This document shows, piece after piece, positions 9,141-36,361 of a DNA stretch of 64,000 nt (positions within the stretch are counted from its first letter, which is position 1; every line of letters starts with the position of its first letter). The notes below the pieces were generated by a model. It saw only the letters and a program-made list of their open reading frames with translations. It was not told the DNA's origin and made no database searches. The DNA is taken from contig OZ251535.1 of NCBI GenBank assembly GCA_965243165.1, positions 1,281,572 to 1,345,571 on the forward strand, given 5' to 3'. Source of the DNA: Candidatus Spongiisociaceae bacterium (GTDB taxonomy: Bacteria > Actinomycetota > Acidimicrobiia > Spongiisociales > Spongiisociaceae). The translations under genes were made by a program, and so were the position numbers.

Positions 9141-9204
9141 TGTGGTTGTTGACCGTTGTCCCCTTGCTTCGGTGAGGGGTTGGCTTGATGGAGGAGGTGG
9201 CCTG

Positions 9205-12200
9205 ATGTTGTTGGGTTGGTCGTTGTTGCGGGGGGGGGGGGGCTGGTGTTGAGGCCGCGGCGTTGGTTGGGTTTGGGGTTGGCGGTTGCTTTGGTGTTGG
9301 GGGTGCTGCCGACTGCGCCGGTTGGGGTGGTGGGTCAGTCGTCTTTTTTGATTACGTTGTCGTTCGATGACGGGGAGAGCACGCCGTCGGCGTTGACGGG
9401 GGTGGCGGAGGAGGGCGGCGGTCAGACGGTGCGGGTGGTGGCGACGGCTTCGGCGGCGACGTCGTCGGCGGTGACGGTGAACGTGTCGGCGGCGGCGGGC
9501 ACGGCGACTGCGACGACGGATTATGCGATTTCGGCTTCGTCGTGGACGGTGACGATCGCCAGCGGGGATACGGTGGGGCATTCGGCGGCGTTGACGGTGA
9601 CACCGGTCAATGACACGCGGGTGGAGGGGGATGAGACGATTGTGTTTTCGGCGACTACGGCCGCGACGGGGTATTCGGCGATTGCTGATGTGAGTTTGAA
9701 TATCGAGGATGACGATGATGATATTGTGTTGTCTTTGGACAAGTCGGCGGTGTTGGAGTGGGCGGCGGATCAGACGGTTACGGTGACGGCGGAGTTCGAG
9801 GGGGCAACGGCGTCGGATTTGGGTTCGTCTTCGGATGTGGTGGTGTCTGTAGCGGGGGGCGCCGGGGCGGATGGAGCAACGCTGGGTGCGGAGGGTCCGC
9901 CGCCGTCGGGGGATTTTTGGACGGATCAGACGGGTGATTCGTTTACGGTGTCGATTGCGGCGGGGGCGGTGTCGGGTTCGGCCAGTTTCGATTTGCGGGC
10001 TCGGGCGGATGGGGTTGCGGAGGCTGGGGGGGAGAAGGTGGCGGTGTCGGGGGCGTTGTCGGGGTTTACGATAACAGATGCGGAGTTGACGATTCATGAT
10101 GCGGTGGTGACGCTAAGTTTTACTGATGCGGCGGATCAGCCTGTTACGGGGTTGGGGGAGGACGACGGAGCGCAGACGGTGCGGGTGGCGGCTTCGGTTC
10201 CGGCGGGGGCGCCTGCGGATGTGGATGTGTCGGTGTCGGTGGACGATGATAATTCGACTGCGGCGGAGGGGTCGGGCGGGGATTATACGACTACGGCGCC
10301 TGCTTCGACTTCGGTTGCGATCAGTTCGGGTGAGACGAGCGGGTCGTCGGGTGATTTGGTGTTTACGCCTTTGTCGGATCGGGTGTTCGAGGATCATGAG
10401 GTTATCAAGTTTACGGGTACAGCTGCGGGATATGAAGTTGAGGATGGTGATTTGCAGATCATCGACGCAGATCGTACGATTGCTTTTTATCCAGATGATG
10501 GTGGTACTATTAGGAACGGTTCGTTTTACATGCGTGAGGACGGCGATCCTACGTTTGGTATTCATCAATGTGGATGCAATCGTAACGGCCCGAGGCCTGG
10601 GTTCACTGTCCGGATAGACGGGGTTACATCTTCTACCTACAGTCAGAACTTGAGGATGCGTTTTGGTGGTATCACCGGGACGGCGAAATACGCTAGCTAT
10701 GATCCAGAGGGTCTAGGTGGAATAAATGATTTTTATTCTGAAGTGGACGTTGGAGGGGGCAAGTGGTTGGACTTGCCCGCGGGAAGTATTTACACGATTA
10801 GCTGGTTCGATACGGGCCAAAATTTTGATTCATGGAGGGATCATGTAGCGGAGCCGGATGAGATTGGTTATATTGGGGCTCGTCCGTCGGGTGTTTATAC
10901 TTTAGAGGGGTTTACGTTGGTCAATATTCCTTTGGTGATCATCGATGATGATGTTCAGTTCAATCCTTTGGATAGGGATGTTACGTCGGTGACGGAGGGT
11001 TCGACGACTGCGGCTGTCAATATCAGTGCGAGTATGAATGCTAATTCTTCTCAATTGACGTCTGATACGGAGCTGCCGTTGTCGGTGTTGAGGGAGGATG
11101 ATCCTGAGGTGGGGGTAGCGGGTGTTGATGATTTCTCTTACTCGGGGTTGACCGACGCGACGGTGGCGGCGGGGCAGATACAGACTGGGTCTTCTCCGGG
11201 GGTGTTGTCTGGATTGATGGTTGTGGATGATACGGTGGTGGAGGGCCCGGAGCTGGTGAAGATCATGAGCTCCCCGGCTTTGGCGGCGGCGAAGCCGAAT
11301 GGGGATGAAACTGATCAGGAAGTTACGTTCGACAGGCTGGAGACGCATGTGACGATCGAGGATGATGATGCTGATATTACGTTGTCGGTGTCGCCGGGGA
11401 CGGTGGCGGAGATGGCGGCCGGTCAGCCGGTGACGGTGGTGGCGGAGTTTGCGGGGTCGTCGTCGGTTTTGACTTCTGCTACGAGTGTGGCGGTGCAGAT
11501 AGCCGGGGGTACGGCAACGTTGACGACTGATTTCACTACGGGTCTGGCGAATGACCGGTTGACGGTTACGATCCCGGCGGGCCGGACGTCGGGGTCGAAG
11601 ACGTTTACGTTGACGGCGATCGACGACAGCACACAGGAGCCTAGCGGGGAGACAGTTACGTTCGAGGGGCATGGAACCACGCGGGTGCGCGGGGCAGATG
11701 TGACGGTTACAGGCGCGTCGTTGACGATCATGGATCCGGGTATGGAGGTGGTGTTGTCTTTGACGGACACCGGGGCTTCTCCGATGGAGTTGTCGGCGGT
11801 GGGGGAGGACGGCGGGGCGAAGACGGTGCGGGTGACGGCTACGGTGGGTACGGCCCTGTCGGGCAGTGATCTGGATGTGGCGGTTACGGTGGGCGCGTTG
11901 GGGAGTTCGGCGGATGAGGGGGATGATTACACGGTTGATGAGTCTTCGGTTACGGTGACCATCGCGGATGGGGCCACTTCTGGGTCGGCGGATGTGGTGG
12001 TTACGCCTGTTTCGGATATGGTTACGGAGGATCATGAGACGATCCTGTTCACGGGGGAAGCGGCGGGGTATGCGGTTGCGCCGGCTTCGTTGGCGGTTAC
12101 CGACGCCGACCGGGCGATTACGTTGGTGTACGGTGCTAACCGGGGGCATGAGGTGGCGTATCAGGAGCAGGCGGCTCTCAGTAATCCACAGTGGAGGTAT

Positions 12201-15200
12201 GTTACCGCCCGTGTGGAGGGTGTGTCTTCTACTTATTCCGGCAGTATCAGGGGGCGGGTCGAGACAGAGTCCGGTACGGCAACGGTGGTTTCTACCGGCT
12301 CGTCGACCAGCGGGGACCTCTACAATTGGCTTGAGCATGCTACTGATATGAGTGAGCACAGGTATGTTGATATCGGTGCGGGTAATACGGAGTCGACTGC
12401 TTGGTTCCGTTCGCGTGTCCGGGCGGATGACGCAGCGGAGCCGGTGGAGGATTTGTATGTTATGTTGTCGGGTTTGACTGATGGTTTCACGGTGGAGCGG
12501 GTGAAGGCGACGGTGGTGGATCGGGTGGATACGGCGGTGGTGTTGACGTTGGGGGGTACGGGGGGTACGGTGTCGGAGGGCGGGGACCTTTCGGGTCTGT
12601 CGGTTACGGCGGGGTTTCCGTCTGGTGTTACGTCGAATGCGTTGGGTTCTGATCTGGTGGTGACGTTGGGCGCTCCGGAGGCGGGTACGGCGGGGGCGGA
12701 TGATTTTTCGTGGACGCCGCCCGATCCTGCGGATACGTTGACGATTCCAACGACGGCGACGGTGAGTCCGGACGCGGATGCGGTGTCGCCTGCGGGGGTG
12801 TCGATCACCGATGATTCGGTGGTGGAGAACCCGGAGACGCTGCAGCTGACCGGCAGCTACACGCTGGACGGTGAAACCCGGGAAACGTCGGCGGAGTTGA
12901 CGATCGAGGACGACGACGCGAATGTGGTGTTGTCGGTGTCGCCGGGGACGGTGGCGGAGGGCAGCACGGAGGAGGTGCGGGTTACGGCCCGGTTCGCGGG
13001 GTCGGCTACGGAGTTGACGTCGGATACGACGGTTACGGTTACCATCGCGGCGGGTACCGCGGTGTTGACGACTGATTTCACTACGGACGCGACGGGCAGT
13101 CAGGTGTCGGTGGTGATCCCGGCCGGGTCTCTGTCGGGGTCGGCGACGTTCAACCTGACAGCGGAAACAGACAGCACCATGGAGGGGAACGAGACGGTTG
13201 CCTTGTCGGGGGCGGGGACGATCGGGTCGCAGACGTTGATGGTGACGGGCGCTGCGGTGAACATCGTCGATTCGGGGATCACGTTGGCGGTGGATGCGGA
13301 TACGGGTACGTCGGGTGATCAGTCGTCGGTGGGTGAGGAGGGGGGTACCAAGACGGTGGAGGTGGAGGTTACGTTGCCGGCGGCGTCTTCTTCGGGCAAC
13401 GGCGCTGTGACGGTTGGGTTGAATGTGGTGGGCGGCACGGCGGTGTTGGACGACAACTCGGACGGGGATTCGGAGTTCGGGGTGGGGGAGGACTTCCGGG
13501 TGACGTATCCGTCGGGGCAGACCAATGTTTCGGTTGAGGTTGCTGAGGGTGACACGACGGGGACGGCGACGTTCGATGTGGTGTTGAACAACGACAACGT
13601 TGCTGAGGGTTCTGCGGCGGAGACGGTGGTGATCGAAGGCGCGGCGGTCACCGTCAACAGTACGTCGTATGAGGTGGTGTCAACGAGTTTCGGGATCACC
13701 GACGACGACGCGTCGCCCACCACTATTGGTTTGACCTTGCTGGACGCAGACGGGGAGGACTTGACAGAGGTCCGGGAGGACGGCGGCACGGTGCGGGTGC
13801 GGGTGAAGGCCGCCTTGGCGGGGGACAAGGTGCTGCCCCGGTCGGTGACGGTTCCGCTCACGGTGGGCATGTCGGGCGGCGCCGCAGCGCCGCATGATTT
13901 CAAGTCGGTTTCGTCGTTGGCGGTGACGATTCCGCCTTATGAGGATGAAGGCACCGTCGAGTTTGATCTGGAGCTGATCGACGATACGAGGCCGGAGGGC
14001 GCCGAGGAATTGACGGTCCACGGCGGCACGCTGGGGGCTGCTCTGACCGGTTTGGGGTTCACGGCGGTGGAGTCCGATTCGTTGACCATCGTGGACAACG
14101 ACATCATCCTGGGTTTGTTGGACGCCGAGGGAGACCTGCTGACCAAGGTTCTGGAAGGAACCAGCCCCCAGGTGCGGGTGCAGGTGTCGTATTCGGGGAC
14201 TTCGACGTCGTCTTCTCCTCGGGTGGTGGAGATATCCGTTGAAGACGGCACCGCCGCGGCCGGGAGTGATTACACCGCTGTCCGGGTGGACCCGGTTCTC
14301 GTACCTCGGAACCGGAACAGCGACAGTTGGCCTATTCCGGGTTTGAGCTTGACCGACAACCGCGATTTCGATGGTGACAAGACGTTGCGGGTGTCCGCCT
14401 CGGCGGAGGGGTTCGACATCGCCCCGGTGGAGCTCATCATTCAGGACAACGAGATCCGGTTGTCGTTGAACCAGGCGTCGGTGCGGGAGGACGCAGGGCG
14501 GATCACCCGAAGGGTTACCGCCCGGGCTGGTTCCGCGCCGCCTGAAGACTTGGTGGTGAACATAACGGTCGGCGGGGGCCGTTCGTCGGGGAATGGTTAC
14601 ACCCGTTTGAGTCCGGCCCGGTTCTCGGTCACGATTCCCGCCGGGGAGACGTCGGGGTCCAGATCGTTCTCCATGACCGTGACCGACGACTCCACCCCCG
14701 GCAATTCCAAGACGTTGTCGGTTGCGGGTTCCGCTTCTGGGTTCTCGGTTGCGTCGGCTCGTTTGACCATCACCGACGACGGCGACACCGCCGCACCCCC
14801 GTCCCCGCCCCCATCAGGCGGCGGGGGCGGAGGCGGAGGGGGAGGTGGTGCTCCACCCCCATCAGGCGGCGGCGGAGGCGGGGGCGGTGGAGGCGGCGGT
14901 GCTCCGCCCCCGGCCGGTGGAGGCGCGCAGCCCCCGGCCCAGCCGCCTGCGCCGGTGTGCGTCGGCCGGTTCTGCGACGACGACGGCAACGTCCATCAGG
15001 ACAACATCGAACGCATCGCGGTGTGGAGGATCACCCTCGGCTGCGACGCCCAGGACGCCACCAAGTACTGCCCCGACGCGGAGATCACCCGCCGGCAGAT
15101 GTCCGCCTTTCTGCACCGGGCCGTCTCGCAGCGGTGGACCATCCAAGCCCCCGAAGGGATCGAGCTGTCCGACGTTGGCGCGGATGAGTGGTTCCGCCCC

Positions 15201-15548
15201 TTCGCGGAATGGGTCGTCTCCGTCGGAGCGTTCAGCGCCCCCAACGGCGTGTTCGACCCGGGCGGGGTGGTTACCCGGGCGGACATGGCGATCATGATGA
15301 TCGGCGCCTTCCCCCACCTCGACGCCGTCCCCACCGAAACCAGCCGGTTCGGCGACGTAGAGGGCCTCTCCCCCGAAGTCCTCGCCGCCCTCGAAGGCAT
15401 GTATCAGACAGGGGTAACCCGAGGGTGTTCCGCCGAGCCGCTGAACTACTGCCCTAGCCAGCCGGTTACCCGGGCGCAGATGGCATCCTTCTTCGTCCGG
15501 GCCGTCAACCTCGCCCCCGCCGACACCCAACCCACCGCCGGCACCTGA
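9205..15548 (+). CDS. Giant secreted Calx-beta-repeat surface protein with C-terminal triple SLH anchor, paralog 1. The ATG start at 9205 is out of frame with the main ORF (9216..15548) because of the 13-G tract at 9230-9242
   Basis: RBS GAGGAGG 7 nt before ATG 9205. Signal-peptide-like N-terminus. More than 15 repeats with the Calx-beta signature (…TDYAISASSWTVTIASGDTVG…VTPVNDTRVEGDETIVFS…). Gly/Pro linker. Three SLH-like motifs (F.DD.GNVHQDNIERIA.W…ITRRQMSAFLHRAV). From the ATG the frame terminates after 15 codons (MLLGWSLLRGGGGWC*); an in-frame GTG at 9246 directly follows the tract. Confidence 0.8.
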
Positions 15549-15565
15549 CCGCAGCTGCTTCTTTA

Positions 15566-15603
15566 TCCGGCTCGGCCTCCCCAGCCAACCCAGGAGGCCG
15601 GGA
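15566..15603 (+). terminator. GC-rich stem-loop immediately 3' of giant gene 1 (candidate intrinsic terminator; no clear U-tract)
   Basis: CCGGCTCGGCCTCC-CCAGCCAACCC-AGGAGGCCGGG inverted repeat about 20 nt after the stop; conserved after all four paralogs. Confidence 0.45.
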
Positions 15604-15771
15604 ACCTGCGCCGCTCGGCCCATGACCTCCCCTCCAATTCGTAGAGCCGCTTTGCTCTCGCTGGGCAACCCTGGTTTCACCCTCGGCGGTCCGCCCGGTA
15701 AAGGGCTGGGCGGGTTCTGGGCGGCTGCCCGCGCCGGCGCGGCGGCTTGTTTGGCGGCCCCTCGGTTATGC

Positions 15772-15800
15772 TTGACTATTGGGGGGGGGGGGGGTAGTAT
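15772..15800 (+). promoter_or_regulatory. Putative promoter of giant gene 2: TTGACT - ATT + 14 G (17 nt spacer) - TAGTAT
   Basis: -35 15772-15777; G14 at 15781-15794; -10 15795-15800. The palindrome CCCGCGCCGGCGCGG lies 30 bp upstream at 15728-15742. Confidence 0.55.
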
Positions 15801-15862
15801 TGTTGTTGTGATCGTTGTCCCCTCGCTCGGTGAGGGGCTGGCTTGATGGAGGAGGTGGCCTG

Positions 15863-18800
15863 ATGATGCGGGGTTGGTCGTTGCTGCGGGGGGGGGGGGG
15901 CCAGGTGTTGAGGCCGCGGCGTTGGTTGGGTTTGGCGTTGGCGGTTGGTTTGGTGTTGGGGGTGTTGCCGGTTGGTCCGCCGGGGGTGGTGGGTCAGTCG
16001 GCGACGATTACGTTGTCGTTCGATGACGGGCAGGGTACGCCGTCGGCGGTGACGGGGGTGGCGGAGGAGGGCGGCGGTCAGTCGGTGCGGGTGGTGGCGA
16101 CGGCTTCGGCGGCGACGTCGGCGGTGGTGGCGGTGAACGTGACGGCGGCGGCGGGCACGGCGACTGCTACTACGGATTATGCGATTTCGGCGGCGTCGTG
16201 GACGGTGACGATCGCGAGCGGGGCTACGGTGGGGCGGTCGGCGGCGTTGACGGTGACTCCGGTCGCCGATGCGTTGGTGGAGGGGGATGAGACGATTGTG
16301 TTTTCGGCGACTACGACCGCGACTGGTTATTCGGCGATTGCTGATGTGAGTTTGAATATCGAGGATGCTGATGTGATTACGTTGTCGTTCGATGACGGGC
16401 AGTCGACGCCGTCGGCGGTGACGGGGGTGTCGGAGGAGGGCGGCGGTCAGTCGGTGCGGGTGGTGGCGACGGCTTCGGCGGCGACGTCGGCGGCGGTGAC
16501 GGTGAATGTGACTGCGGCGGCGGGTACGGCGACTGCTACTACGGATTATGCGATTTCGGCGGCGTCGTGGACGGTGACGATCGCGAGCGGGGCTACGGTG
16601 GGGCGGTCGGCGGCGTTGACGGTGACTCCGGCCTCCGACATGTTGGTGGAGGGGGATGAGACGATTGTGTTTTCGGCGACTACGACGGCGACGGGTTACG
16701 CGGCGATCGGGAGTGTGAATTTGAGTATTGGGGATGATGACAATGTGATTACGTTGTCGTTCGATGACGGGCAGGGTACGCCGTCGGCGTTGACGGGGGT
16801 GCCGGAGGGGGGCGGCGGTCGGTCGGTGCGGGTGGTGGCGACGGCTTCGGCGGCGTCGGGGGTGGAGTTGACGGTGAATGTGTCGGCGGCGGCGGGCACG
16901 GCGGCGGATCCGGAGGATTATGGGATTTCGGCTTCGTCGACGTCGGTGACGATTGCTTCGGGGGATACGGTGGGGTATTCGGAGGTGTTGACGGTGACTC
17001 CGGTGGATGACTTGTCGGTGGAGGGGGATGAGACGATTGTGTTTTCGGGGTCTACGACCGTGCCGGGTCATGCGGCGATTGCTGATGTGAGTTTGAATAT
17101 CGTGGATGATGACAATGTGATTACGTTGTCGTTTGCGGATGCGGCGGGTCAGCCTGTTGATGGGTTGGGGGAGGACGGCGGGCGTCAGTCGGTGCGGTTG
17201 GTTGCTTCGGTTCCGGCGGGGGTGCTGGTGCCGGCGGATGTGGATGTGTCGGTGACGGTGGATGATGCTCCTGAGACGGCGACGCCGGGGGCGGGCGGGG
17301 ATTATACGGCTTCTGGGATTCCTGCTTCGTTGACGGTTTCTATCAGTTCGGGTGGAACGGTGAGCGGGTCGTCGGGCGATTTGGTGTTTACTGCTTTGTC
17401 TGATCGGGTGTTAGAGGATCATGAGATCGTGAGGAGGTTTACGGGTACGGCTTCGGGGTATACGGTCAAGGATGCTGATTTGTTGATTTTGGATGCGGAT
17501 CGTACTATTGTTGTTACTATGGATAATCTGAGACAACCTACGACCCATCATTTTTTTACTCGTGATGACGGTACTTTCGTTTTACGGGAGACTGGTGATC
17601 CTAGGAGCGGGCCGATATTTTGTTCTTGTCATGACGGCCCTCAGCCGTGGTTCACCGGCCGGGTGGATGGGGTTACTTCTTCTACCTACAGTCAGAACCT
17701 GACCATGTATTTCAAGCTTTTCAGCGGGACTGCTGAAGTTGTTAGCGGCGGTGAAATTCCCGGAACTGTGGATATCACTGGTTTAATTTTGGATGATTGG
17801 TTTCGTAGGTCCCGTACACACAACGTCCGGGCGACGTTGAATGCGGGCAACACTTTTTTCAGGTTTAGGCCGGGCGGTTCTCAGGCTGATTTTTTTAGCG
17901 GTTACAATTTTATCGCGGAGCCTGATGAGACTTTCACGATTGGATTTGCTAAAACCTGGAACGGCTTTGAACCGCCGGATGGGTTCGAGATTGTTCCGGT
18001 GCAGGGGGTGGTGATCGATGATGATGTACAGCTTGAGAGGTTTTGGGTGGATGTTACGTCGGTGGCGGAAGGTTCGCCGACGGATGTGAAAATTGGTACG
18101 GGTTTTAATGCTAGTTTGACTGATTATGGCAGTGTCCCGTCTGACCAGAACCGTGAGGGTCGGAACAATGCTCAACGTTCCGAGTTGACGTCTGATACGG
18201 TGGTGTCGTTGTCGGTGGTGGAGGGGCCGGGGTTGCTGAGCGCCGACGAGTATTCTGCCACTTGGACGAGGAGGTCGATAACTATTGCGGCGGGTGCTGC
18301 GGGTGACGGCGGTTGGGAGACAACGTTGACGAATCTGTCGGTTGCGGATGATGGTGTGGTGGAGGGTCTGGAGCGGCTGCGGATCGTGGGTACGGCGGCG
18401 TTGGCGGCGACCAAGTCTGATGGGTCGCCTACTGATCAGGTGGTTACTTTCAAGGACCTGTCAGCGAATATTATTACGGTGACGGATGCCAATGCTGATA
18501 TCACGTTGTCGGTGTCGCCGGGGACGGTGTCGGAGACGGCGGCCGGTCAGCCGGTGACGGTGTCGGCGGAGTTCGCGGGGTCGTCATCGGTTTTGACGTC
18601 TGATACGGATGTGGCGGTGCAGATAGCCGGGGGTACGGCAACGTTGACGTCTGATTTCACTACGGGTCTGGCGAATGATCGGTTGACGGTTACGATCCCG
18701 GCGGGGGAGACGAGGGGGTCGAAGTCGTTTACGTTGACGGCGATCGACGACAGCACACAGGAGCCTAGCGGGGAGACGGTTACGTTCGCGGGGCATGGGA

Positions 18801-22684: not shown

Positions 22685-22702
22685 CCGCAGCTGCTTCTTT
22701 AT

Positions 22703-22742
22703 CCGGCTCGGCCTCCCCAGCCAACCCAGGAGGCCGGGCCGG
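22703..22742 (+). terminator. Conserved GC-rich stem-loop 3' of giant gene 2
   Basis: CCGGCTCGGCCTCC-loop-GGAGGCCGGGCC. Confidence 0.45.
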
Positions 22743-22811
22743 AACCGCCCCTGGAGTCTGTGTAGCCCTGCCTGGCGGCTTCTTCGGTGTGCTTGACTAT
22801 TCGGGGGGGGG

Positions 22812-22842
22812 GGGGGTAGTATGTTGTTGTGATCGTTGTCCC
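22812..22842 (+). promoter_or_regulatory. Putative promoter of giant gene 3: TTGACT - ATTC + 15 G (19 nt spacer) - TAGTAT
   Basis: -35 22812-22817; G15 at 22822-22836; -10 22837-22842. The spacer is 2 nt longer than in the other three copies, and the upstream CCCGCGCCGGCGCGG palindrome is missing in this copy. Confidence 0.5.
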
Positions 22843-22883
22843 CTCGCTCGGTGAGGGGCTGGCTTGATGGAGGAGGTGGCCTG

Positions 22884-28800: not shown

Positions 28801-29346
28801 AACATCGAGCGCATCGCGGTGTGGCGGATCACTCTCGGCTGTGACGCCCAGGACGCCACCAAGTACTGCCCCAATGCGGAGATCACCCGCCGGCAGATGT
28901 CCGCCTTCTTGCACCGGGCCGTCTCGCAGCGGTGGACCATCGAAGCCCCCGAAGGAATCGTGCTCACCGACGTCGGCGCGGATGAGTGGTTCCGCCCCTT
29001 CGCGGAGTGGGTCGTCTCCGTGGGAGCGTTCAGCGCCCCCGGCGGGGTGTTCGACCCGGGCGGGGTGGTTACCCGGGCGGATATGGCGATCATGATGATC
29101 GGCGCGTTCCCCCACCTCGACGCCGTCCCCACCGAAGCGAGCCGGTTCGGCGACGTAGAGGGCCTCTCCCCCGAAGTGTTGGCCGCCCTCGAGGGCATGT
29201 ATCAGACGGGCGTAACCCGTGGATGCTCCGCCGAGCCGCTGAATTACTGCCCTGCCCAGCCGGTTACCCGGGCGCAGATGGCGTCGTTCTTCGTCCGGGC
29301 CGTCAACCTCGCCCCCGCCGACACCCAACCCGCCGCCGGTACCTGA
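22884..29346 (+). CDS. Giant Calx-beta-repeat/SLH surface protein, paralog 3. The ATG start at 22884 is out of frame with the main ORF (22927..29346) across the 15-G tract at 22909-22923
   Basis: Same RBS/ATGATG leader as copy 2. From the ATG the reading runs into ORF 22836..23048 (…RGGGGAGVESAALVGFGVGG…). The main ORF has two N-terminal Calx-beta units, the copy-2-type middle module, Gly/Pro linker and three SLH motifs. An in-frame GTG at 22927 directly follows the tract. Confidence 0.8.
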
Positions 29347-29365
29347 CCGCAGCTGCTTCTTTATC

Positions 29366-29404
29366 CGGCCCGGCCTCCCCAGCCAACCCAGGAGGCCGGG
29401 CCGG
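29366..29404 (+). terminator. Conserved GC-rich stem-loop 3' of giant gene 3
   Basis: CCGGCCCGGCCTCC-CCAGCCAACCC-AGGAGGCCGGGCCGG. Confidence 0.45.
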
Positions 29405-29527
29405 AACCGCCCCCCGGGGGAACCTGCGCAGTCCGGTCCAGGGCCTCCCCCCTCCAATGCTTAGAGGGGGGTCTGGGAGGCTGCCCGCGCCGGCGCGGCG
29501 GCTTGTTTGGCGGCCCCTCGGTTGTGC

Positions 29528-29556
29528 TTGACTATTCGGGGGGGGGGGGGTAGTAT
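29528..29556 (+). promoter_or_regulatory. Putative promoter of giant gene 4: TTGACT - ATTC + 13 G (17 nt spacer) - TAGTAT
   Basis: -35 29528-29533; G13 at 29538-29550; -10 29551-29556. Upstream palindrome CCCGCGCCGGCGCGG at 29483-29497. Confidence 0.55.
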
Positions 29557-29616
29557 CTTGTTGCTAGACTGGTTTGCAGTCCCCTTGAGGGGTCGTCTCG
29601 TGGAGGAGGTGGTCTG

Positions 29617-32600
29617 ATGCTGGGTTGGTCGTTGCTGCGGGGGGGGGGGGCAGGTGTTGAGTCGGCGGCGTTGGTTGGGTTTGGGGTTGGCGGTTGGTTT
29701 GGTGTTGGGGGTGCTGCCGGTTGGTCCGCCGGGGGTGGTGGGTCAGTCGGCGACGATTACGTTGTCGTTCGACGACGGGGAGAGTACGCCGTCGGCGTTG
29801 ACGGGGGTGGCGGAGGAGGGCGGCGGTCAGTCGGTGCGGGTGGTGGCGACGGCTTCGGCGGCTACGTCGGCGGCGGTTACGGTGAATGTGTCGATCGCGG
29901 CGGGTACGGCGACCGCGGCGACGGATTATGCGGTTTCGGCGGCGTCGGCGACGGTGACGATCGCCAACGGGGATACGGTGGGGTATTCGGCGGCGTTGAC
30001 GGTGACGCCGGTGGATGATGCGTTGGTGGAGGGGGATGAGACGATTGTGTTTTCGGCGACTACGTCGGCGACGGGTTATTCGGCGATTGCTGATGTGAGT
30101 TTGAACATCGAGGATGCTGATGTGATTACGTTGTCGTTCGATGACGGGGCGGGCACGCCGTCGGCGGTGACGGGGGTGTCGGAGGAGGGCGGCGGTCAGT
30201 CGGTGCGGGTGGTGGCGACGGCTTCGGCGGCGACGTCGGCGGCGGTTACGGTGTCGGTGTCGATCGCGGCGGGTACGGCGACTGCGACGACGGATTATGC
30301 GGTTTCGGCTTCGTCGACGACGGTGACGATCGCCAACGGGGATACGGTGGGGCAGTCGTCGGCGTTGACGGTGACTCCGGCCTCCGACGCGTTGGTGGAG
30401 GGGGATGAGACGATTGTGTTTTCGGGGTCTACGACGGCGACGGGTTATGCGGCGATTGCTGATGTGAGTTTGATTATTGGGGATGATGACAATGTGATTA
30501 CGTTGTCGTTCGATGACGGGGAGAGTACGCCGTCGGCTGTGACGGGGGTGTCGGAGGGGGGCGGCGGTCGGTCGGTGCGGGTGGTGGCGACGGCTTCGGC
30601 GGCGTCGTCGGCGGCGGTGACGGTGGATGTGTCGGCGGCGGCGGGTACGGCGACTGCGGCGACGGATTATGCGGTTTCGGCTTCGTCGGCGTCGGTGACG
30701 ATCGCGGCGGGGGATACGGTGGGTTATTCGGAGGTGTTGATGGTGACGCCGGTGGATGACTTGTTGGTGGAGGGGGATGAGACGATTGTGTTTTCGGGGT
30801 CTACGACCGTGCCGGGTCATGCGGCGATTGCTGATGTGAGTTTGGTTATTGGGGATGATGACAATGTGATTACGTTGTCGTTTGTGGATGAGGCGGGTGA
30901 GCCTGTTGGGGGGTTGGGGGAGGACGACGGGGCGCAGGCGGTGCGGTTGGTTGCTTCGGTTCCGGCGGGGGTGCAGGTGCCGGCGGATGTGGATGTGTCG
31001 GTGACGGTGGATGATGCTCCTGAGACGGCGACGCCGGGGGCGGGCGGGGATTATACGGCTTCTGGGATTCCTGCTTCGCTGACGCTTTCTATCGCTTCGG
31101 GTGGGACAGTGAGCGGGTCTTCGGGTGATTTGGTGTTTACTGCTTTGTCGGATCGGGTGTTCGAGGATCACGAGATCGTGAGGAGGTTTACGGGTACGGC
31201 TTCGGGGTATACGGTCGAGGACGCTGATTTGCTGATCATGGACGCCGATCGTACGATTGTTTTTCATGTAGATGATGATCGTGGTAATATTATTAGGAGC
31301 GGGTCGTTGTACATGCGTGAGCGGGGCGATCCGGTTGGCACTAATGAATGTGACTGCAATCGGGTGGGCCCGAGGCCTGGGTTCACTGTCCGGATAGACG
31401 GGGTTACGTCTTCTACTTACAGTCAGAACTTGAGGATGCGTTTTGGCGGTATCAGCGGGACGGCGAAATACCCGTTCTATAATCCAGAGGGTCTGGGTGG
31501 ATTTAATGATTTTTATTCCCTAGCAGACGAAAGCGGGAGGAGCAGGTGGTTGGAGTTGCCTGCGGGAAGTATTTACGCAATTAGCTGGTTCAATTCGGGC
31601 GAGAACTTTGATTCATGGAAGGATCATGTAGCGGAGCCGGATGAGATTGGTTACCTTGGGGCTCGTCCGTCGGGTGTTCATACTTTGGAGGGGTTTACGT
31701 TGGTCAATATTCCTTTGGTGATCATCGATGATGATGTTCAGTTCAATCCTTTGGGGAGGAGTGTTACGTCGGTGACGGAGGGTTCAACGACGGCGGCTGT
31801 CAATATCAGTGCGCGTATGCATGCTAATTCTTCTCAATTGACGTCTGATACGGAGCTGTCGCTGTCGGTGTTGAGGGAAGATGATCCTGAGGTAGGGGTA
31901 GCGGGTGTTGATGATTTCTCTTACTCGGGTTTGACTGACGGGACTGTGGCGGCGGGGCAGATACACACTGGATCTTCTCCGGGGGTGTTGTCTGGACTGG
32001 CGGTTGTGGATGATACGGTGGTGGAGGGCCCGGAGCAGGTGAAGATCATGAGCTCCCCGGCTTTGGCGGCGGCGAAGCCGAATGGGGATGAAACTGATCA
32101 GGAGGTTACCTTCGACAGGCTGGAGACGCACGTAACGATTGAGGATGATGATGCTGATATCAGTTTGTTGGTGTCGCCGGGGTCGGTGGTGGAGAAGGCA
32201 GGCGGTCAGACGGTGACGGTGGTGGCGGAGTTCGCGGGGTCGTCGTCGGTTTTGACGTCTGATACGGATGTGGAGGTGCAGATAGCCGGGGGTACGGCAA
32301 CGTTGACGACTGATTTCACGGTTTCGGGTTTGGATGCCAACGATCGGTTGACGGTTACGATCCCGGCGGGCCGGACGTCGGGGTCGAAGACGTTTACGCT
32401 GACGGCGCTCGTCGACAGCGTGACGGAGTCCAGCGGGGAGACGGTTACGTTCGAGGGGCATGGAACCACGCGGGTGCGCGGGGCAGCCGTGACGGTTACG
32501 GGCGCCTCGCTGACGATCATGGATCCGGGTATGGAGGTGGTGTTGTCTTTGACGGACACGGGGATTTCTCCGGAGGCGTTGTCGGCGGTGGATGAGGACG

Positions 32601-35600
32601 GCGGAGCGAAGACGGTGCGGGTGACGGCTGCGGCGGGGGCGGCTGTGACGGGGAGTCAGACAATAACGGTTACGGTGGGCGCGGCGGGGAGTACAGCGGA
32701 TGAGGGGGATGATTATACGGTTGATGCGTCTTCGGTTACGGTGACCATCGCGGATGGGGCTATGTCGGGGACGGCGGATGTGGTGATTACGCCTGTTTCG
32801 GATACGGTTACGGAGGATGATGAGACGATCCGTTTCACGGGGGAATTGGCGAGTTATGTGGTTGCGCCGGTTTCGTTGGGAATCACCGACGCCGACCGGA
32901 CTATCACGTTGGAGTTCGCTGTTACGGCGCCGCATCCGTTGGAGTTTCGGGAGGGGCGTTATAGTGATGAGTGGAGGAAGGTTACCGCCCGTGTGGAGGG
33001 TGTGTCTTCTACTTATTCCGGCAGTATCAGGGGGCGGGTCAGGCCAGAGGCCGGTACGGCAACGGTGGTTTCCACCGGCCCGTCGACCAGCGGGGATCTC
33101 TACAATTCACTCGAGCATGCTACTGACACGAGTGAGCACAAGTATGTCGATATCGGTGCGGGTAATACGTCGGCGGGTGTTTGGTTCGTTTCGCGTGTCC
33201 TGGCGGATGACGCGGCGGAGCCGGTGGAGGATTTGTACTATACGTTGTCGGATTTGACTGATGGTTTTACGGTGGAGCGGGTGAGGGCGACATTGGTGGA
33301 TCGGTTGGACACGGCGGTGGTGTTGACGCTGGGGGGTACGGGGGCTGCGGTGTCGGAGGACGGGGACCTTTCGGGTCTGTCGGTCACGGCCGGTTTTCCG
33401 TCTGGTGTTACTTCGAGCACGATTGGTTCTGATCTGGTGGTGACGTTGGACGCTCCGGAGGCGGGTACGGCGGGGGCGGATGATTTTTCGTGGACGCCGC
33501 CCGGGACTGCCGACACTTTGACGATCGAGGCGGGGCAGACGGCGAGTCCGGCGGTGTCGCCGGCGGGGGTGTCGATCACCGATGATTCGGTGGTGGAGAA
33601 CCCGGAGACGCTGCAGCTGACCGGCAGCTACACGCTGGACGGCGAAACCCGGAAGACGGAGGCGACGTTGACTATCGAGGACGACGACGCGAATGTGGTG
33701 TTGTCGGTGTCGCCGGGGACGGTGGTGGAGGGCGACACGGAGGAGGTGCGGGTTACCGCCCGGTTCGCGGGGTCGGCTACAGAGTTGACGTCGGATACGA
33801 CGGTTACGGTTACCATCGCGGCGGGTACGGCGACGTTGACGACTGATTTCACTACGGACGCGACGGGCAATCAGGTGTCGGTGGTGATCCCGGCCGGGTC
33901 TCTGTCGGGCTCCGCGACGTTCAACCTGACAGCGGAAACAGACAGCACCATGGAGGGGAAGGAGACGGTCACCTTGTCGGGGGCGGGGACGATCGGGTCG
34001 CAGACGTTGAGGGTTACGGGCGCTGCGGTGAACATCGTCGATTCGGGTATTACGTTGGCGGTGGATGCGGATGCGGATACGACGAATAATCAATCGTCGG
34101 TGGGGGAGGAGGGGGGCACCAAGATGGTGGAGGTTACGGTTACGTTGCCGACGGCGCCTTCGGGGAGCGCCGAGGTGGTGGGGTTGAATGTGGTGGGCGG
34201 CACGGCGGTGTTGGACGGGGATTCGGAGTTCGGGGTGGGGGAGGACTTCCGGGTGACGTATCCGTCGCCGCAGTCACCGCCGCCGCCGACGGGTCATAGT
34301 TTGGCGGTTGAGGTTGCTGATGGTGCTACGACGGGGTCGGCGACGTTTACGGTGGTGTTGAACGACGACGATGTTGCTGAGGGTTCTGCGGCGGAGACGG
34401 TGGTGATCGAAGGCGCCGCTGTCACCTACGGCGGTGGTACGTATGAGGTGGTGTCGACCAGTTTTGGGATCACCGACGACGACGCGTCGCCCACCACTAT
34501 TGGTTTGTCCTTGCTGGACAGCGGCGGGGAGGACTTGACGGAGGCCGGCGAAGGCGGCGGTACGGTTCGGGTGCGGGTGAAGGCCGCCTTGGCGGGGGAC
34601 AAGGTGCTGCCCCGGTCGGTGACGGTTCCGCTGGTGGTGGGTCAGTCGGGCGGAGCCGCGGCGGGGACGGATTTCAAGTCGGTCTCGTCGCTGGCGGTGA
34701 CGATTCCGCCTCATGAGGATGAGGGAACCGTTGAGTTCGATCTGGAGCTGATAGACGATACGAGGTTGGAGGGCACCGAGGAATTGACGATCCACGGCGG
34801 CACTCTGGGGGTTGCTCTGACCGATTTGGGGTTCACCGCGGTCGAGTCCGATTCGTTGACCATCGTGGACAACGACATCATCCTGGGTTTGTTGGACGCT
34901 GACGGGGACCCGCTGACCAAGGTTCTGGAAGGCACCAGCCCCCAGGTGCGGGTGCAGGTGTCGTATTCAGGGACTTCTACGTCATCCTCTCCTCGGGTGG
35001 TGGAGATATCCGTTGAAGACGGCACCGCCGCGGCCGGGAGTGATTACACCGTTGCCCGGGTGGACCCGGTTCTCGTACCTCGGAACCGGAACAGCGACAG
35101 TTGGCCTATTCCGGGTTTGAGCTTGACCGACAACCGCGATTTTGATGGTGACAAGACGTTGCGGGTGTCCGCCTCGGCGGAGGGGTTCGACATCGCCCCG
35201 GTGGAGCTCATCATTCAGGACAACGAGATCCGGTTGTCGTTGAACCAGGCGTCGGTGCGGGAGGACGCAGGGCGGATCACCCGCACGGTCACCGCCCAGG
35301 CGGGTTCCGCACCCCCCGAGGACCTGGTTGTCAACATTGTGGTCGGTGGGGGCCGTTCGTCGGGGAATGGTTACACCCGTTTGAGTCCGGCCCGGTTCTC
35401 GGTCACGATCCCCGCCGGGGAGACGTCGGGATCCAGATCGTTCTCCATGACCGTGACCGACGACTCCACCCCCGGCAATTCCAAGACGGTGGCGGTTACG
35501 GGCTCCGCGTCGGGGTTCGACATTTCGGCGGCTCGTTTGACCATCACCGACGACGGCGACACCGCCGCACCCCCGTCCCCGCCCCCATCAGGCGGCGGCG

Positions 35601-36361
35601 GCGGAGGAGGCGGCGGCGGTGCTCCACCCCCATCAGGCGGAGGCGGCGGGGGCGGCGGTGCTCCACCCCCGGCCGGAGGCGGCGGAGGCGGCGGCGGAGG
35701 AGGGGGCGGTGGTGCTCCGCCCCCGGCCGGAGGAGGCGCCCAGCCCCCGGCCCAGCCGCCCGCACCGGCCTGCGTCGGCCGGTTCTGCGACGACGACGGC
35801 AACGTCCACCAAGACAACATCGAACGCATCGCCGTGTGGCAGATCACCCTCGGTTGCGACGCCCAAGACGCCACCAAATACTGCCCCGACGCCCAGATCA
35901 CCCGCAGGCAGATGTCCGCCTTCCTGCATCGGGCCGTTTCCCAACGGTGGACCATCCAAGCCCCCGAAGGGATCGAACTCACCGACGTCGAAGCCGACGA
36001 ATGGTTCCGCCCCTTCGCGGAATGGGTCGTCTCCGTCGGAGCCTTCAGCGCCCCCGAGGGCGTGTTCAACCCCGGCGGGGTGGTCACCCGGGCGGATATG
36101 GCGATCATGATGATCGGCGCGTTCCCCCACCTCGACGCCGTCCCCACCGAAGCGAGCCGGTTCGGCGACGTCGAGGGCCTCTCCCCCGAAGTGTTGGCCG
36201 CCCTCGAAGGGATGTACCAGACGGGCGTTACCCGAGGATGTTCCGCCGAACCCCTCAACTACTGCCCTGCCCAGCCGGTTACCCGGGCGCAGATGGCGTC
36301 GTTCTTCGTCCGAGCCGTCAACCTCGCCCCCGCCGACACCCAACCCACCGCCGGCACCTGA
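29617..36361 (+). CDS. Giant Calx-beta-repeat/SLH surface protein, paralog 4. The ATG start at 29617 is out of frame with the main ORF (29654..36361) across the 12-G tract at 29639-29650
   Basis: RBS GGAGGAGGTGG then ATG 29617. The ATG frame continues as ORF 29617..30018. The main ORF has three N-terminal Calx-beta units, the copy-1-type middle module (HVDDDRGNIIRSGSLYMRERGDP…), Gly/Pro linker and three SLH motifs. An in-frame GTG at 29654 follows the tract. Confidence 0.8.

What the first reader, a model, noticed from the sequence alone, without database searches (positions are those of the whole stretch)
9216..36361. Mosaic/cassette architecture among the four paralogs suggests gene conversion or antigenic variation
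The copies share near-identical blocks: the SLH region, the central VLSVSPGTVAEG…, and the C-proximal LSLNQASVREDAGRITRTV… But they carry two alternative internal non-Calx modules of about 150 aa. Copies 1 and 4 have the FYPDDGGTIRNGSFYMREDGDP…GVTSSTYSQNLRMRFGGI type. Copies 2 and 3 have the TMDNLRQPTTHHFFTRDDGTFVLRETGDP…NLTMYF type. They also differ in the number of N-terminal Calx-beta units (1, 3, 2, 3) and in linker length. Block-wise identity interrupted by divergent cassettes is what recombination between tandem paralogs produces.
Basis: seen in the sequence. Interest (0 to 1): 0.7.

Follow-up and report, generated by a model that had tools for sequence, protein, structure and literature searches.

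The report
Phase-variable mosaic surface protein gene family
Four neighbouring genes of an uncultured sponge-associated actinobacterium encode giant cell-wall-anchored surface proteins that have clearly swapped segments with one another, and each carries two slippery runs of G at its start that look like on/off switches, so this symbiont may vary its surface coat the way some pathogens do.

Summary
Four tandem + strand genes (9216-15548, 15815-22684, 22927-29346, 29654-36361) encode 2,110-2,289-aa Calx-beta repeat proteins with a triple SLH anchor. Their nucleotide alignment is a statistically unambiguous mosaic: 537 quartet-informative sites fall in 87 runs against 249±8 expected, and at least four breakpoints separate all three possible groupings. 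Recent conversion tracts exist (432 nt identical between copies 1 and 2). Two regions hold deeply diverged types (dS>1). At least three further paralogs outside the window take part.

Two corrections apply:
- The SLH block is conserved by purifying selection (dS 0.1-0.57, dN 0.01-0.03), not by conversion.
- The "non-Calx" modules are homologous to each other and probably divergent Calx-like units.

There are no silent cassettes, recombinases or reverse transcriptases, so this is not pilS/vls-type cassette variation.

A new feature emerged. Every copy has a G12-14 tract filling its -35/-10 promoter spacer and a G12-15 tract in its leader-peptide codons. Only copy 2 is in frame. The same poly-G promoter precedes about 45 giant SLH-protein genes in four related Candidatus Spongiisociaceae/Acidimicrobiia chromosomes.

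Best reading: an Opa/Vlp-like contingency gene family, a new member of a known kind. Actual switching is inferred, not shown.

The parts
9112..9140 (+). Copy 1 promoter: -35 TTGATT, spacer of 17 nt (ttctc + G12 at 9123-9134), -10 TAGTAT
   Evidence: homologous to the promoters that the scan flagged for copies 2-4
9190..9242 (+). Copy 1 Shine-Dalgarno GGAGGAGGTGG (9190-9200), ATG 9205, and leader-codon tract G13 (9230-9242). The ATG frame stops after 15 codons (OFF); G14 or G11 would restore the frame
9216..15548 (+). Copy 1 ORF, 2110 aa. It has one ITLSFDDG unit plus a unique second unit, a type-A variable region, and a triple SLH domain at 14968-15545
15772..15800 (+). Copy 2 promoter: TTGACT, spacer of 17 nt (att + G14 at 15781-15794), TAGTAT
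15848..15900 (+). Copy 2 SD, ATG 15863, and leader tract G13 (15888-15900). It is in frame with the whole gene (ON): MMRGWSLLRGGGGQVLRPRRW...
   Evidence: database protein P0001 equals this ORF from the second ATG
15815..22684 (+). Copy 2 ORF (2289 aa from the first possible start; 2273 aa from ATG 15863). Three ITLSFDDG units, type-B variable region, SLH at 22104-22681
22793..22822 (+). Copy 3 promoter: TTGACT, spacer of 18 nt (attc + G14 at 22803-22816), TAGTAT
22869..22923 (+). Copy 3 SD, ATG 22884, and leader tract G15 (22909-22923). Out of frame; G14 would restore it
22927..29346 (+). Copy 3 ORF, 2139 aa. Two ITLSFDDG units, type-B variable region, SLH at 28766-29343
29528..29556 (+). Copy 4 promoter: TTGACT, spacer of 17 nt (attc + G13 at 29538-29550), TAGTAT
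29602..29650 (+). Copy 4 SD, ATG 29617, and leader tract G12 (29639-29650). Out of frame; G11 or G14 would restore it
29654..36361 (+). Copy 4 ORF, 2235 aa. Three ITLSFDDG units, type-A variable region, SLH at 35781-36358
10406..11414 (+). Variable region 1 in copy 1 (equivalents: c2 17431-18538, c3 24090-25185, c4 31180-32197). Two deep types, c1/c4 versus c2/c3, with dS>1 between types
12531..12962 (+). A 432-nt tract identical to copy 2 19646-20077, the most recent conversion
13354..13793 (+). Segment where the grouping is c1~c3 and c2~c4 (47:2 informative sites; dS 0.03-0.04). Equivalents: c2 20478-20920, c3 27131-27576, c4 34125-34567
14108..14655 (+). Variable region 3 in copy 1 (equivalents: c2 21235-21761, c3 27891-28417, c4 34882-35429), again c1/c4 versus c2/c3
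15567..15602 (+). Conserved GC-rich hairpin after the stop codon. Identical copies lie at 22703-22738, 29365-29400 and 36380-36415. Terminator-like, with no T run

Best explanation
The locus is a tandem array of four complete, independently expressed genes. Each encodes a giant secreted protein with these parts: a signal-peptide-like leader, about 15 Calx-beta-type beta-sandwich units, a Pro/Gly linker and a triple SLH cell-wall anchor. They belong to a family of at least seven paralogs in this genome, which is a sponge-associated Acidimicrobiia of the Candidatus Spongiisociaceae group.

Two processes shape the array.

1. Shown: homologous recombination or gene conversion between paralogs has repeatedly moved segments of about 0.4-3 kb. 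Unequal exchange between the 83-92% identical 366-nt N-terminal units has changed unit number. Each gene is therefore a different mosaic of shared scaffold and old, diverged variable regions. The anchor is held constant by purifying selection.

2. Inferred from sequence logic and conservation: each gene has two slipped-strand switches. One is a poly-G tract that makes up most of the -35/-10 spacer and sets transcription level. The other is a poly-G tract about 25 nt after the SD-ATG, in the leader codons, and sets the translational frame. In this assembly only copy 2 is in frame, and the other three are one G away from being in frame.

Together these would give stochastic, combinatorial expression of different surface proteins. 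The scheme is that of Neisseria Opa or Mycoplasma Vlp, not silent-cassette conversion. The likely selective agents are host (sponge) recognition or phagocytosis, or phage; this part is speculation.
For: Mosaic and recombination:
- Sliding identity varies widely and the closest pair changes along the genes.
- Informative sites are clustered: 87 runs against 249 ± 8.
- The GENECONV-like runs test gives p<=0.0005 for all six pairs.
- A 432-nt tract is identical between copies 1 and 2.
- Segmentation gives five segments covering all three possible groupings.
- dS ranges from 0.01 to >1 along one alignment.
- The nearest neighbour per 100-aa window switches among c1-c4 and the out-of-window paralogs P0002-P0004. 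The best homolog from any other genome is less similar than the closest in-genome paralog in all but three of the 88 windows.
- N-terminal units are 83-92% identical within and between genes.

Switches:
- All homopolymers of 11 nt or more in the 64 kb are the 8 tracts at homologous 5' positions of the four genes, plus two downstream.
- G12 occurs 19 times against 0.89 expected, and 0 of 100 shuffles reach that count.
- The promoter scan independently flags TTGACT-17/18-TAGTAT at copies 2-4.
- Frame analysis shows copy 2 in frame and the other three out of frame.

Conservation in relatives:
- In 51 loci from four related MAG chromosomes there are 45 TTGAnn-(3-5 nt)-G11-19-TAnnnT motifs. All lie on the strand of the SLH-protein gene that defines the locus. 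The 44 examined are each followed by a long ORF (1,246-2,848 codons in 41 of them). G runs outnumber C runs 67 to 4.
- Illumina-type scaffolds show the same motif.
- Three paralogs in OZ241842 have 99-99.7% identical downstream sequence but leader tracts of G10, G11 and G12.
- Interrupted ('locked') tracts occur at the homologous promoter position in other family members.

Selection: the ectodomain has dN/dS of about 0.5-1, against about 0.05 for the SLH domain.
Against: - No read-level or population data are available, so tract-length heterogeneity and switching are not shown.
- Homopolymer lengths in long-read MAG assemblies are error-prone, so the ON/OFF calls are provisional.
- Two conspecific scaffolds (96.3% identical) have the same tract lengths at both comparable loci, G10/G10 and G11/G11.
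- Most relatives have spacers of 15-16 nt, and 'locked' promoters exist at both 15 and 18 nt. It is therefore unknown which lengths are active.
- An in-frame GTG directly after the leader tract could allow translation regardless of tract length.
- The promoter and SD are consensus matches only.
- The adhesin or host-interaction function is unproven.
Confidence: 0.7

Rival explanations
1. Ordinary divergence of tandem duplicates with uneven selective constraint. Conserved blocks are simply constrained and variable blocks are simply free, with no recombination.
For: This is true for the SLH domain, where protein identity comes from purifying selection (dS 0.10-0.57, dN 0.01-0.03).
Against: All three quartet groupings are each strongly supported in different contiguous segments (47:2, 24:8, 256:42). 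dS drops to 0.01-0.05 in tracts that differ by pair. The runs test lies about 20 sd from expectation. One tree cannot produce this pattern.
Confidence: 0.03
2. Programmed cassette-type antigenic variation, as in pilE/pilS, vlsE or msp2. One expressed gene would be rewritten from silent donor cassettes.
For: The structure is mosaic with old variable types. Only one of the four copies is in frame from the SD-ATG.
Against: All four copies are full length with their own promoter, SD, leader, anchor and terminator hairpin. No partial or promoterless copies occur elsewhere in the window. No recombinase, invertase or reverse transcriptase is encoded in the window. The shortest dS between copies is mostly 0.03-0.2, which points to evolutionary rather than within-lifetime exchange.
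Confidence: 0.07
3. The mosaic is real, but the poly-G tracts are fixed promoter or leader elements inherited with the gene family. They could be a spacer of convenient composition, a G-quadruplex or a regulator site. They would not be switches, and expression would be regulated conventionally.
For: The orientation is strictly G on the coding strand (45 of 45 promoter motifs), which fits common descent of a promoter 'chassis'. Tract lengths are identical in two conspecific strains. Lengths cluster tightly at 11-12 in relatives. G11 is the minimum for a two-tetrad quadruplex (established knowledge).
Against: Tract length differs (10, 11, 12) among paralogs that are 99-99.7% identical downstream, and ranges from 11 to 19 overall. 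Three of four leader tracts put the SD-ATG out of frame by exactly one slip. Interrupted tracts occur at the same position, as is typical of decaying contingency loci. G runs of 10 or more are intrinsically hypermutable in every bacterium tested (established knowledge).
Confidence: 0.2
4. Assembly artefact. A metagenome assembler stitched reads of different strains or paralogs into chimeric copies, and homopolymers were mis-called.
For: The source is evidently a MAG chromosome, since the relatives are MAGs. Homopolymer length is the weakest point of long-read consensus.
Against: The copies differ by 5-60% in most 150-nt windows, and the longest shared exact tract is 432 nt, far shorter than HiFi reads. 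Tandem arrays with the same uneven identity profile occur in independent related genomes. Poly-G promoters occur in four long-read chromosomes and in short-read scaffolds.
Confidence: 0.05

Closest known systems
Neisseria Opa protein gene family
   Same: Both have several complete paralogous surface-protein genes per genome. Each gene is switched on or off by a repeat in the leader-peptide codons that changes the frame. Hypervariable regions are reassorted among loci by recombination, giving mosaic alleles. (Established knowledge, compared.)
   Different: Opa uses CTCTT pentamers, not poly-G, and has no promoter tract. Opa proteins are small outer-membrane beta-barrels of a Gram-negative pathogen. 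Here the proteins are about 2,200-aa SLH-anchored Calx-beta repeat proteins of an actinobacterial sponge symbiont. Switching has not been demonstrated here.
Mycoplasma hyorhinis vlp genes; Neisseria porA/opc promoters
   Same: A homopolymer tract lies in the -35/-10 spacer, so its length sets promoter strength. In vlp, a tandem cluster of surface-protein paralogs each has its own tract. (Established knowledge, compared.)
   Different: vlp uses poly-A and encodes small lipoproteins with internal repeats. Here the tract is poly-G and makes up nearly the whole spacer, and a second coding tract is present.
Helicobacter pylori sabA (two-level repeat control)
   Same: One adhesin gene carries both a promoter homopolymer that tunes transcription and a 5' coding repeat that sets the frame. 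Paralogs (sabA/sabB/omp27) exchange by gene conversion. (Established knowledge.)
   Different: sabA uses poly-T plus CT repeats and encodes an outer-membrane adhesin. The family is small, whereas related genomes here carry tens of loci.
pilE/pilS, vlsE and msp2 silent-cassette antigenic variation
   Same: A surface protein gets a mosaic sequence by gene conversion between related sequences.
   Different: The defining architecture, one expression site plus promoterless partial donors, is absent here.
Calx-beta 'eukaryote-like' proteins enriched in sponge-symbiotic Acidimicrobiia (PMC11706023)
   Same: The organism group and domain class are the same. That paper reports that Calx-beta, LRR, fn3 and cadherin domain genes are significantly enriched in sponge-symbiotic members of family TK06 and genus UBA11606.
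   Different: A term search of that paper found no occurrence of 'S-layer', 'SLH' or 'phase varia', so SLH anchoring and phase variation are not discussed there; poly-G tracts and inter-paralog recombination were not among the terms searched. No paper in the searchable library links sponge symbionts with homopolymer switches.

Membership tests
Simple-sequence-repeat contingency (phase-variable) loci | A homopolymer or short repeat long enough to slip (about 8-9 nt or more), located in the promoter spacer or the 5' coding region | tested here: met
   G12-14 lies between the -35 and -10 hexamers, and G12-15 lies about 25 nt after the SD-ATG, in all four genes. The tracts are enriched over shuffles.
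Simple-sequence-repeat contingency (phase-variable) loci | A one-unit length change alters spacer length or reading frame, with a predictable on/off outcome | tested here: met
   Copy 2 is in frame. Copies 1, 3 and 4 are out of frame by +1, -1 and -1 G. Promoter spacers are 17, 17, 18 and 17 nt.
Simple-sequence-repeat contingency (phase-variable) loci | Tract length is polymorphic among otherwise near-identical sequences, strains or reads | tested here: inconclusive
   For: G10, G11 and G12 occur in three paralogs that are 99-99.7% identical downstream, and the range is 11-19 among family promoters. Against: two conspecific scaffolds have equal lengths at two loci. No reads are available.
Simple-sequence-repeat contingency (phase-variable) loci | Reversible, high-frequency switching of expression is observed | not testable with these tools
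   This needs read-level data, transcriptomics or proteomics, or reporter assays.
Mosaic multigene surface-protein families (Opa/Vlp type) | Several complete paralogs, each with its own expression signals | tested here: met
   Promoter, SD, leader, anchor and terminator hairpin are present in all four copies. At least three more paralogs (P0002-P0004) lie on the same 3.19-Mb chromosome.
Mosaic multigene surface-protein families (Opa/Vlp type) | Variable regions are reassorted among paralogs by recombination | tested here: met
Silent-cassette gene-conversion systems (pilE/pilS, vlsE) | A single expression locus plus promoterless partial donor cassettes | tested here: not met
   There is no partial copy elsewhere in the window by blastn or tblastn. 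All four copies are complete. The rest of the genome could not be searched.
Diversity-generating retroelements / invertible-promoter systems | A nearby reverse transcriptase with template and variable repeats, or a site-specific recombinase with inverted repeats | tested here: not met
   The 20 flanking ORFs tested give transport and metabolic families, an LRR+SLH protein and a Schlafen AlbA_2/HATPase_c_4 protein, or no Pfam hit; none is a recombinase, invertase or reverse transcriptase.
Calx-beta domain proteins (PF03160) | A significant match to the Pfam model above the gathering score | tested here: met
   Copy 4 scores 50.6 bits (E=2.3e-13) and copy 2 scores 47.1 bits, against a cut-off of 27. 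Copies 1 and 3 are below the cut-off on their own (19.7 and 21.6 bits) but are clearly homologous.
SLH-anchored cell-wall proteins | A C-terminal or N-terminal triple SLH domain | tested here: met
   Pfam SLH scores 18.8-22.4 bits, around the 20.8 cut-off. phmmer against the Sap SLH domain (3pyw/6bt4) gives E about 1e-9. Three SLH-like repeats are visible in the sequence. Binding to pyruvylated cell-wall polymer was not tested.

The most novel reading that the evidence does not exclude
The array may be part of a dedicated, genome-wide hypervariation system in a non-pathogenic animal symbiont. In this reading, tens of SLH-anchored giant surface-protein genes share one promoter/leader 'chassis' with two-tier poly-G switches. 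The extreme G/T-rich, C-depleted coding strand of the ectodomain bodies decays 5'->3' from the promoter and would be functional. It would promote R-loop or G-quadruplex-initiated gene conversion, as the pilE G4 does in Neisseria or switch regions do in immunoglobulin genes. Segment shuffling would then be stimulated by transcription of the switched-on copy, rather than being only slow evolutionary exchange.
Probability: 0.12. Interest if true: 0.85.

Novelty: new member of a known kind. Interest (0 to 1): 0.62.

Why it matters
Sponge symbionts are known to be enriched in 'eukaryote-like' repeat proteins, but how these are deployed is unknown and the bacteria are uncultured. If the four genes, and the tens of similar genes in related genomes, are switched on and off by poly-G slippage and reshuffled by recombination, then a mutualist or commensal uses the contingency-locus strategy described mainly for mucosal pathogens.

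That would mean a surface coat that varies from cell to cell, with consequences for host recognition, avoidance of phagocytosis and phage resistance inside the sponge.

The idea is directly testable with existing long-read metagenome data, by counting tract lengths per read. It also carries a practical warning. Frame-shifted members of this family are likely to be annotated as pseudogenes or with wrong starts, so counts of such proteins from MAG annotations may be biased. In the protein database searched with copy 4, only copy 2 of the four window genes appeared among the hits.

Tried and rejected
- The first genome scan used an out-of-frame query and found nothing. It was repeated with an alignment of the SLH domain.
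- The metagenome pattern scan (TGCTTGACTATT-N11-18-TAGTAT) was too loose. Conspecific metagenome contigs of the window's own species could therefore not be obtained.
- The look-up of encoding contigs holds no record for P0001 or P0002. The listing of cluster members gave no accessions or names. The positions of paralogs P0002-P0004 on the 3.19-Mb chromosome are therefore unknown.
- The AlphaFold model of the variable GVTSSTYS module failed (pLDDT 31 with a 10-sequence alignment), so no fold search was run. Pfam finds nothing meaningful for the module. Only the weak hhalign link to the canonical units remains.
- Rfam gave no hit at gathering thresholds for the whole window. With relaxed thresholds on 39640-40360 it gave only chance microRNA matches. 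The 163-nt repeat there does not fold better than shuffles (z = 0.11).
- Considered and rejected: DGR, invertible promoter and silent-cassette archive; SLH identity as evidence of conversion; unit-number difference between conspecific strains L173 and L174, where the 106-aa length difference between P0005 and P0007 is only a start-codon choice.
- I could not decide which promoter tract lengths are 'on', because locked relatives exist with spacers of both 15 and 18 nt.


Full report
**What is there.** The window is about 70% G+C. It contains four co-oriented ORFs at exactly the coordinates given: c1 9216-15548, c2 15815-22684, c3 22927-29346 and c4 29654-36361. They sit between transport genes and a B3_4-domain gene upstream, and an LRR+SLH protein gene and oligopeptide ABC genes downstream. 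Each ORF encodes a 2,110-2,289-aa protein with these parts:
- a signal-peptide-like N-terminus;
- about 15 beta-sandwich-type units that end in ...DxDD motifs;
- a Pro/Gly-rich linker encoded by mixed GGN codons;
- a C-terminal domain made of three SLH-like repeats.

Pfam finds Calx-beta (up to 50.6 bits) and SLH. The C-terminus matches the solved SLH domain of B. anthracis Sap at E about 1e-9.

**Organism.** The closest genomes are complete MAG chromosomes labelled Candidatus Spongiisociaceae or uncultured Acidimicrobiia (taxonomy). This is a sponge-associated actinobacterial lineage. Calx-beta proteins are already reported to be enriched in sponge-symbiotic Acidimicrobiia (PMC11706023).

**Checking the observation.** The ITLSFDDG unit count is 1, 3, 2, 3.

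At nucleotide level:
- On a codon alignment, 150-nt windows range from 40% to 100% identity, and the closest pair changes repeatedly.
- Of 537 quartet-informative sites, 377 support 14|23, 90 support 13|24 and 70 support 12|34. They fall in 87 runs, against 249.1 ± 8.1 in 5000 permutations with a minimum of 219.
- A GENECONV-like test gives longest concordant runs of 20-83 polymorphic sites against permutation maxima of 10-24, with p<=0.0005 for all six pairs.
- A penalised segmentation gives five segments:

| Alignment columns | Grouping | Sites for : against |
|---|---|---|
| 99-3447 | 14/23 | 256:42 |
| 3450-3928 | 13/24 | 22:6 |
| 4040-4726 | 12/34 | 24:8 |
| 4769-5235 | 13/24 | 47:2 |
| 5326-7036 | 14/23 | 110:20 |

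**Layers of age.** Windowed Nei-Gojobori estimates show three layers:
- Recent tracts have dS of 0.01-0.05. These are c1-c2 at columns 3901-4500, which include a 432-nt exact match (12531-12962 = 19646-20077); c1-c3 and c2-c4 at 4801-5100; and c2/c3/c4 at the 5' end.
- The background dS is 0.15-0.4.
- Two regions, variable region 1 and a region near the 3' end, differ between the c1/c4 and c2/c3 types with dS of about 0.5 to >1.

**Selection.** The ectodomain has dN/dS of about 0.5-1. The SLH domain has dS of 0.10-0.57 but dN of only 0.01-0.03. Its near-identity at protein level is therefore purifying selection, not homogenisation.

**N-terminal units.** These 366-nt units are 83-92% identical both within and between genes. 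That makes them an obvious substrate for the unit-number differences.

**The family is larger than the window.**
- A database protein, P0001, is identical to c2 from its second ATG and lies on a 3,189,970-bp contig. Three more paralogs (P0002-P0004, 2,134-2,252 aa) lie on a contig of the same length.
- In 100-aa windows, the nearest neighbour of each window gene switches among c1-c4 and P0002-P0004. For example, c4 residues 1-300 are 91-96% identical to P0002, c3 residues 1-100 are 96% identical to P0004, and c3 residues 1001-1200 are 94% identical to P0002 or P0003.
- The best homolog from any other genome is only 39-81% identical.
- The one exception is the unique second unit of c1. It is matched best by homologs from other species (P0006, P0008, P0009, P0010), so it is an old module retained only in c1.
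- Tandem paralogs in related genomes show the same uneven identity profiles, 45-98%.

**The 'two alternative modules'.** They align with each other through invariant landmarks: DADRT, RE..D, GVTSSTYS.NL, GTA, AG, AEPDE, GF and DDDVQ. A profile of the module aligns to a profile of the canonical units in the expected register, but only weakly (hhalign E=2e-4, probability 45%). Pfam finds nothing for the module and the structure prediction failed. I therefore regard them as divergent versions of one unit, probably Calx-like with insertions. They are not unrelated cassettes.

**What kind of variation system this is not.**
- No partial copies occur elsewhere in the window. The only other similarity is the SLH domain of the LRR gene.
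- No recombinase, invertase, transposase or reverse transcriptase is encoded in the window.
- Every copy has its own promoter-like site, Shine-Dalgarno sequence, leader, anchor and an identical post-stop hairpin.
- Silent-cassette conversion, DGRs and invertible promoters are therefore not supported.

**A new feature: paired poly-G tracts.** Aligning the four upstream regions and listing homopolymers shows that every run of 11 nt or more in the 64 kb belongs to one of eight tracts at homologous 5' positions of the four genes. The only exceptions are two tracts further downstream. G12 occurs 19 times against 0.89 expected.

| Copy | -35 hexamer | Promoter tract | Spacer (nt) | Leader tract | Frame from SD-ATG | Length(s) that restore frame |
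|---|---|---|---|---|---|---|
| c1 | TTGATT | G12 | 17 | G13 | out | G14 or G11 |
| c2 | TTGACT | G14 | 17 | G13 | in | (already in frame) |
| c3 | TTGACT | G14 | 18 | G15 | out | G14 |
| c4 | TTGACT | G13 | 17 | G12 | out | G11 or G14 |

- The first tract fills the spacer between the -35 hexamer and TAGTAT. The independent promoter scan flags these sites for c2-c4.
- The second tract lies about 25 nt after a GGAGGAGGTGG-ATG start, in the leader codons (M-M-R-G-W-S-L-L-R-Gn...).
- From that ATG only c2 reads through into the gene. Each of c1, c3 and c4 is one G away from being in frame.

**Conservation of the poly-G promoter in relatives.**
- In 51 loci (1.03 Mb) around SLH-anchor genes of four related chromosomes, there are 45 motifs of the form TTGAnn-(3-5 nt)-G11-19-TAnnnT, mostly TTGACA-AATT-Gn-TAGCGT.
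- All are on the strand of the SLH-protein gene that defines each locus. The 44 examined are each followed by a long ORF (1,246-2,848 codons in 41 of them).
- G runs of 10 or more outnumber C runs 67 to 4.
- One lineage (OZ241842) also has a leader-region tract.
- Three of its paralogs are 99-99.7% identical over the next 300 nt but carry G10, G11 and G12. The tract therefore changes much faster than the flanks.
- Short-read scaffolds of other species show the same promoter (G10, G11).
- Family members also occur with interrupted tracts at the same position, such as GGGAGGGAGAGGG and GGGGGAGGGGG. These are 'locked' promoters.

**Limits on the switch inference.**
- Two conspecific scaffolds (96.3% identical) have equal tract lengths at two loci.
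- Spacer lengths in relatives are mostly 15-16 nt, and locked examples exist at both 15 and 18 nt. I cannot say which lengths are active.
- Homopolymer lengths in long-read MAG assemblies are uncertain.
- An in-frame GTG after the leader tract could allow some translation irrespective of frame.
- No read-level data were accessible. My one metagenome scan was wasted on too loose a pattern.

**Mechanism proposed.**
- Shown: inter-paralog recombination has built each gene as a distinct mosaic on a common scaffold. The anchor is under strong constraint and the ectodomain under weak or diversifying selection.
- Inferred: slipped-strand changes at the promoter and leader tracts switch each gene independently, so that cells display different subsets of these proteins.
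- Speculative: the selective agent is host recognition or phagocytosis in the sponge, or phage that use the proteins as receptors.

**Comparison with known systems.**
- In logic this is the Neisseria Opa scheme: leader-repeat frame switching plus reassortment of hypervariable regions among complete paralogs.
- It is combined with the promoter-spacer homopolymer of Mycoplasma hyorhinis vlp or Neisseria porA/opc.
- Two-level control on one gene is known for H. pylori sabA.
- It differs in repeat type, protein class, anchor and organism.
- The library searches found no paper linking sponge symbionts, Acidimicrobiia or SLH/Calx-beta proteins with homopolymer switching.
- I therefore rate it a new member of a known kind, of above-average interest because it is readily testable and extends contingency loci to an uncultured animal symbiont at a scale of tens of loci per genome.

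**An unexplained extra.**
- The ectodomain-coding bodies have a striking synonymous-site composition. In c2, the third-position composition is C 0.06-0.16, G 0.55-0.80 and T 0.13-0.47 over most of the first 5 kb or so.
- It returns to the genome-typical composition in the last 1.6 kb or so (C3 0.36-0.53), which includes the SLH domain. The flanking housekeeping genes have C3 0.45-0.48, G3 0.36-0.42 and T3 0.04-0.11.
- The same body-versus-anchor contrast holds in 17 of 18 giant SLH genes examined in the related genomes.
- Possible causes include transcription-associated mutation, selection for a G-rich non-template strand (with possible links to recombination) and a founder effect of the repeated unit. 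These data cannot distinguish them.

Noticed in passing
window 9123-9134, 9230-9242, 15781-15794, 15888-15900, 22803-22816, 22909-22923, 29538-29550, 29639-29650: Each of the four genes has two poly-G tracts (G12-15). One fills the -35/-10 promoter spacer and one lies in the leader-peptide codons. Only copy 2 is in frame from the SD-ATG. The finding as given did not mention this feature, and it became central to the explanation.
   Followed up: yes
L002-L047 (four related MAG chromosomes), L173, L174: A conserved promoter, TTGACA-AATT-G11-19-TAGCGT, precedes about 45 giant SLH-protein genes and is always G on the coding strand. One lineage also has a leader tract: L012, L014 and L022 carry G12, G11 and G10 with 99-99.7% identical flanks.
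   Followed up: yes
L172 7564-7593, L035 3076-3105, L174 24025-24051: The G tracts are interrupted at the homologous promoter position (GGGAGGGAGAGGG, GGGAGGGGGAGGG, GGGGGAGGGGG), giving fixed spacers of 18, 18 and 15 nt. These look like 'locked' versions of the switch. The L172 and L035 cases are in the family member that sits in the conserved def-fmt context; the L174 case precedes the third giant gene of that locus.
   Followed up: partly
window 15863-22684 (and the other three copies); giant ORFs in L001-L051: Third codon positions of the ectodomain bodies are strongly G/T-rich and C-poor (C3 about 0.1, G3 about 0.6, T3 about 0.25). A 5'->3' gradient returns to the genome-typical C3 of about 0.5 in the last 1.6 kb or so, including the SLH domain. 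The same contrast appears in relatives. This explains the +0.3 GC skew and the lower G+C of the array. The cause is unknown.
   Followed up: partly
window 39700-39860 and 40145-40306: Two copies of a direct repeat of about 140-160 nt (mean column identity 82% in the 198-column alignment) each have long complementary ends (GAGGACGAGCGGACAGG...CCTGTCAGCTCGTCTTC) and stop about 25 nt before a G12 or G11 tract. They lie between the LRR-SLH gene and the next genes. There is no Rfam match, and the fold is no better than shuffles.
   Followed up: partly
window 37653-39647 (- strand): A 664-aa leucine-rich-repeat protein has a C-terminal SLH domain that is 34-36% identical to that of the four paralogs. 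It is a second kind of SLH-anchored 'eukaryote-like' protein next to the array. It has no poly-G promoter of the family type.
   Followed up: partly
window 9723-10106 (copy 1 residues about 170-297): The second unit of copy 1 (IVLSLDKSAV...) has no counterpart in copies 2-4. It is matched best by homologs from other species (P0006, P0008, P0009, P0010; 64-71% identity). It is an old module kept in one paralog only.
   Followed up: partly
window 9216-36361, compared with the protein database: A database search with copy 4 returned copy 2 (as P0001, starting at the second ATG) but not copy 4 itself, nor copies 1 or 3, which the ranking should have placed near the top. Paralogs P0002-P0004 are annotated from a downstream GTG (MLGVLPVG...). 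This suggests that the frame-shifted members are mis-started or treated as pseudogenes by annotation pipelines.
   Followed up: no
window 60001-64000: G+C drops from about 0.70 to 0.50-0.52. The region includes an NMT1/THI5-like substrate-binding protein gene (60179-62299). It may be a foreign or compositionally distinct segment.
   Followed up: no
window 46992-48863 (- strand): This ORF has Schlafen AlbA_2 and HATPase_c_4 domains, an architecture often found in putative regulators or defence-associated genes. It is unrelated to the array.
   Followed up: no
L173 vs L174 (96.3% identical conspecific scaffolds): Flanking housekeeping genes are 97-99.8% identical. The giant Calx-SLH gene has 500-nt windows down to 88-91% identity, and its promoter region is 84% identical. 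The surface gene therefore evolves faster than its surroundings between strains.
   Followed up: partly
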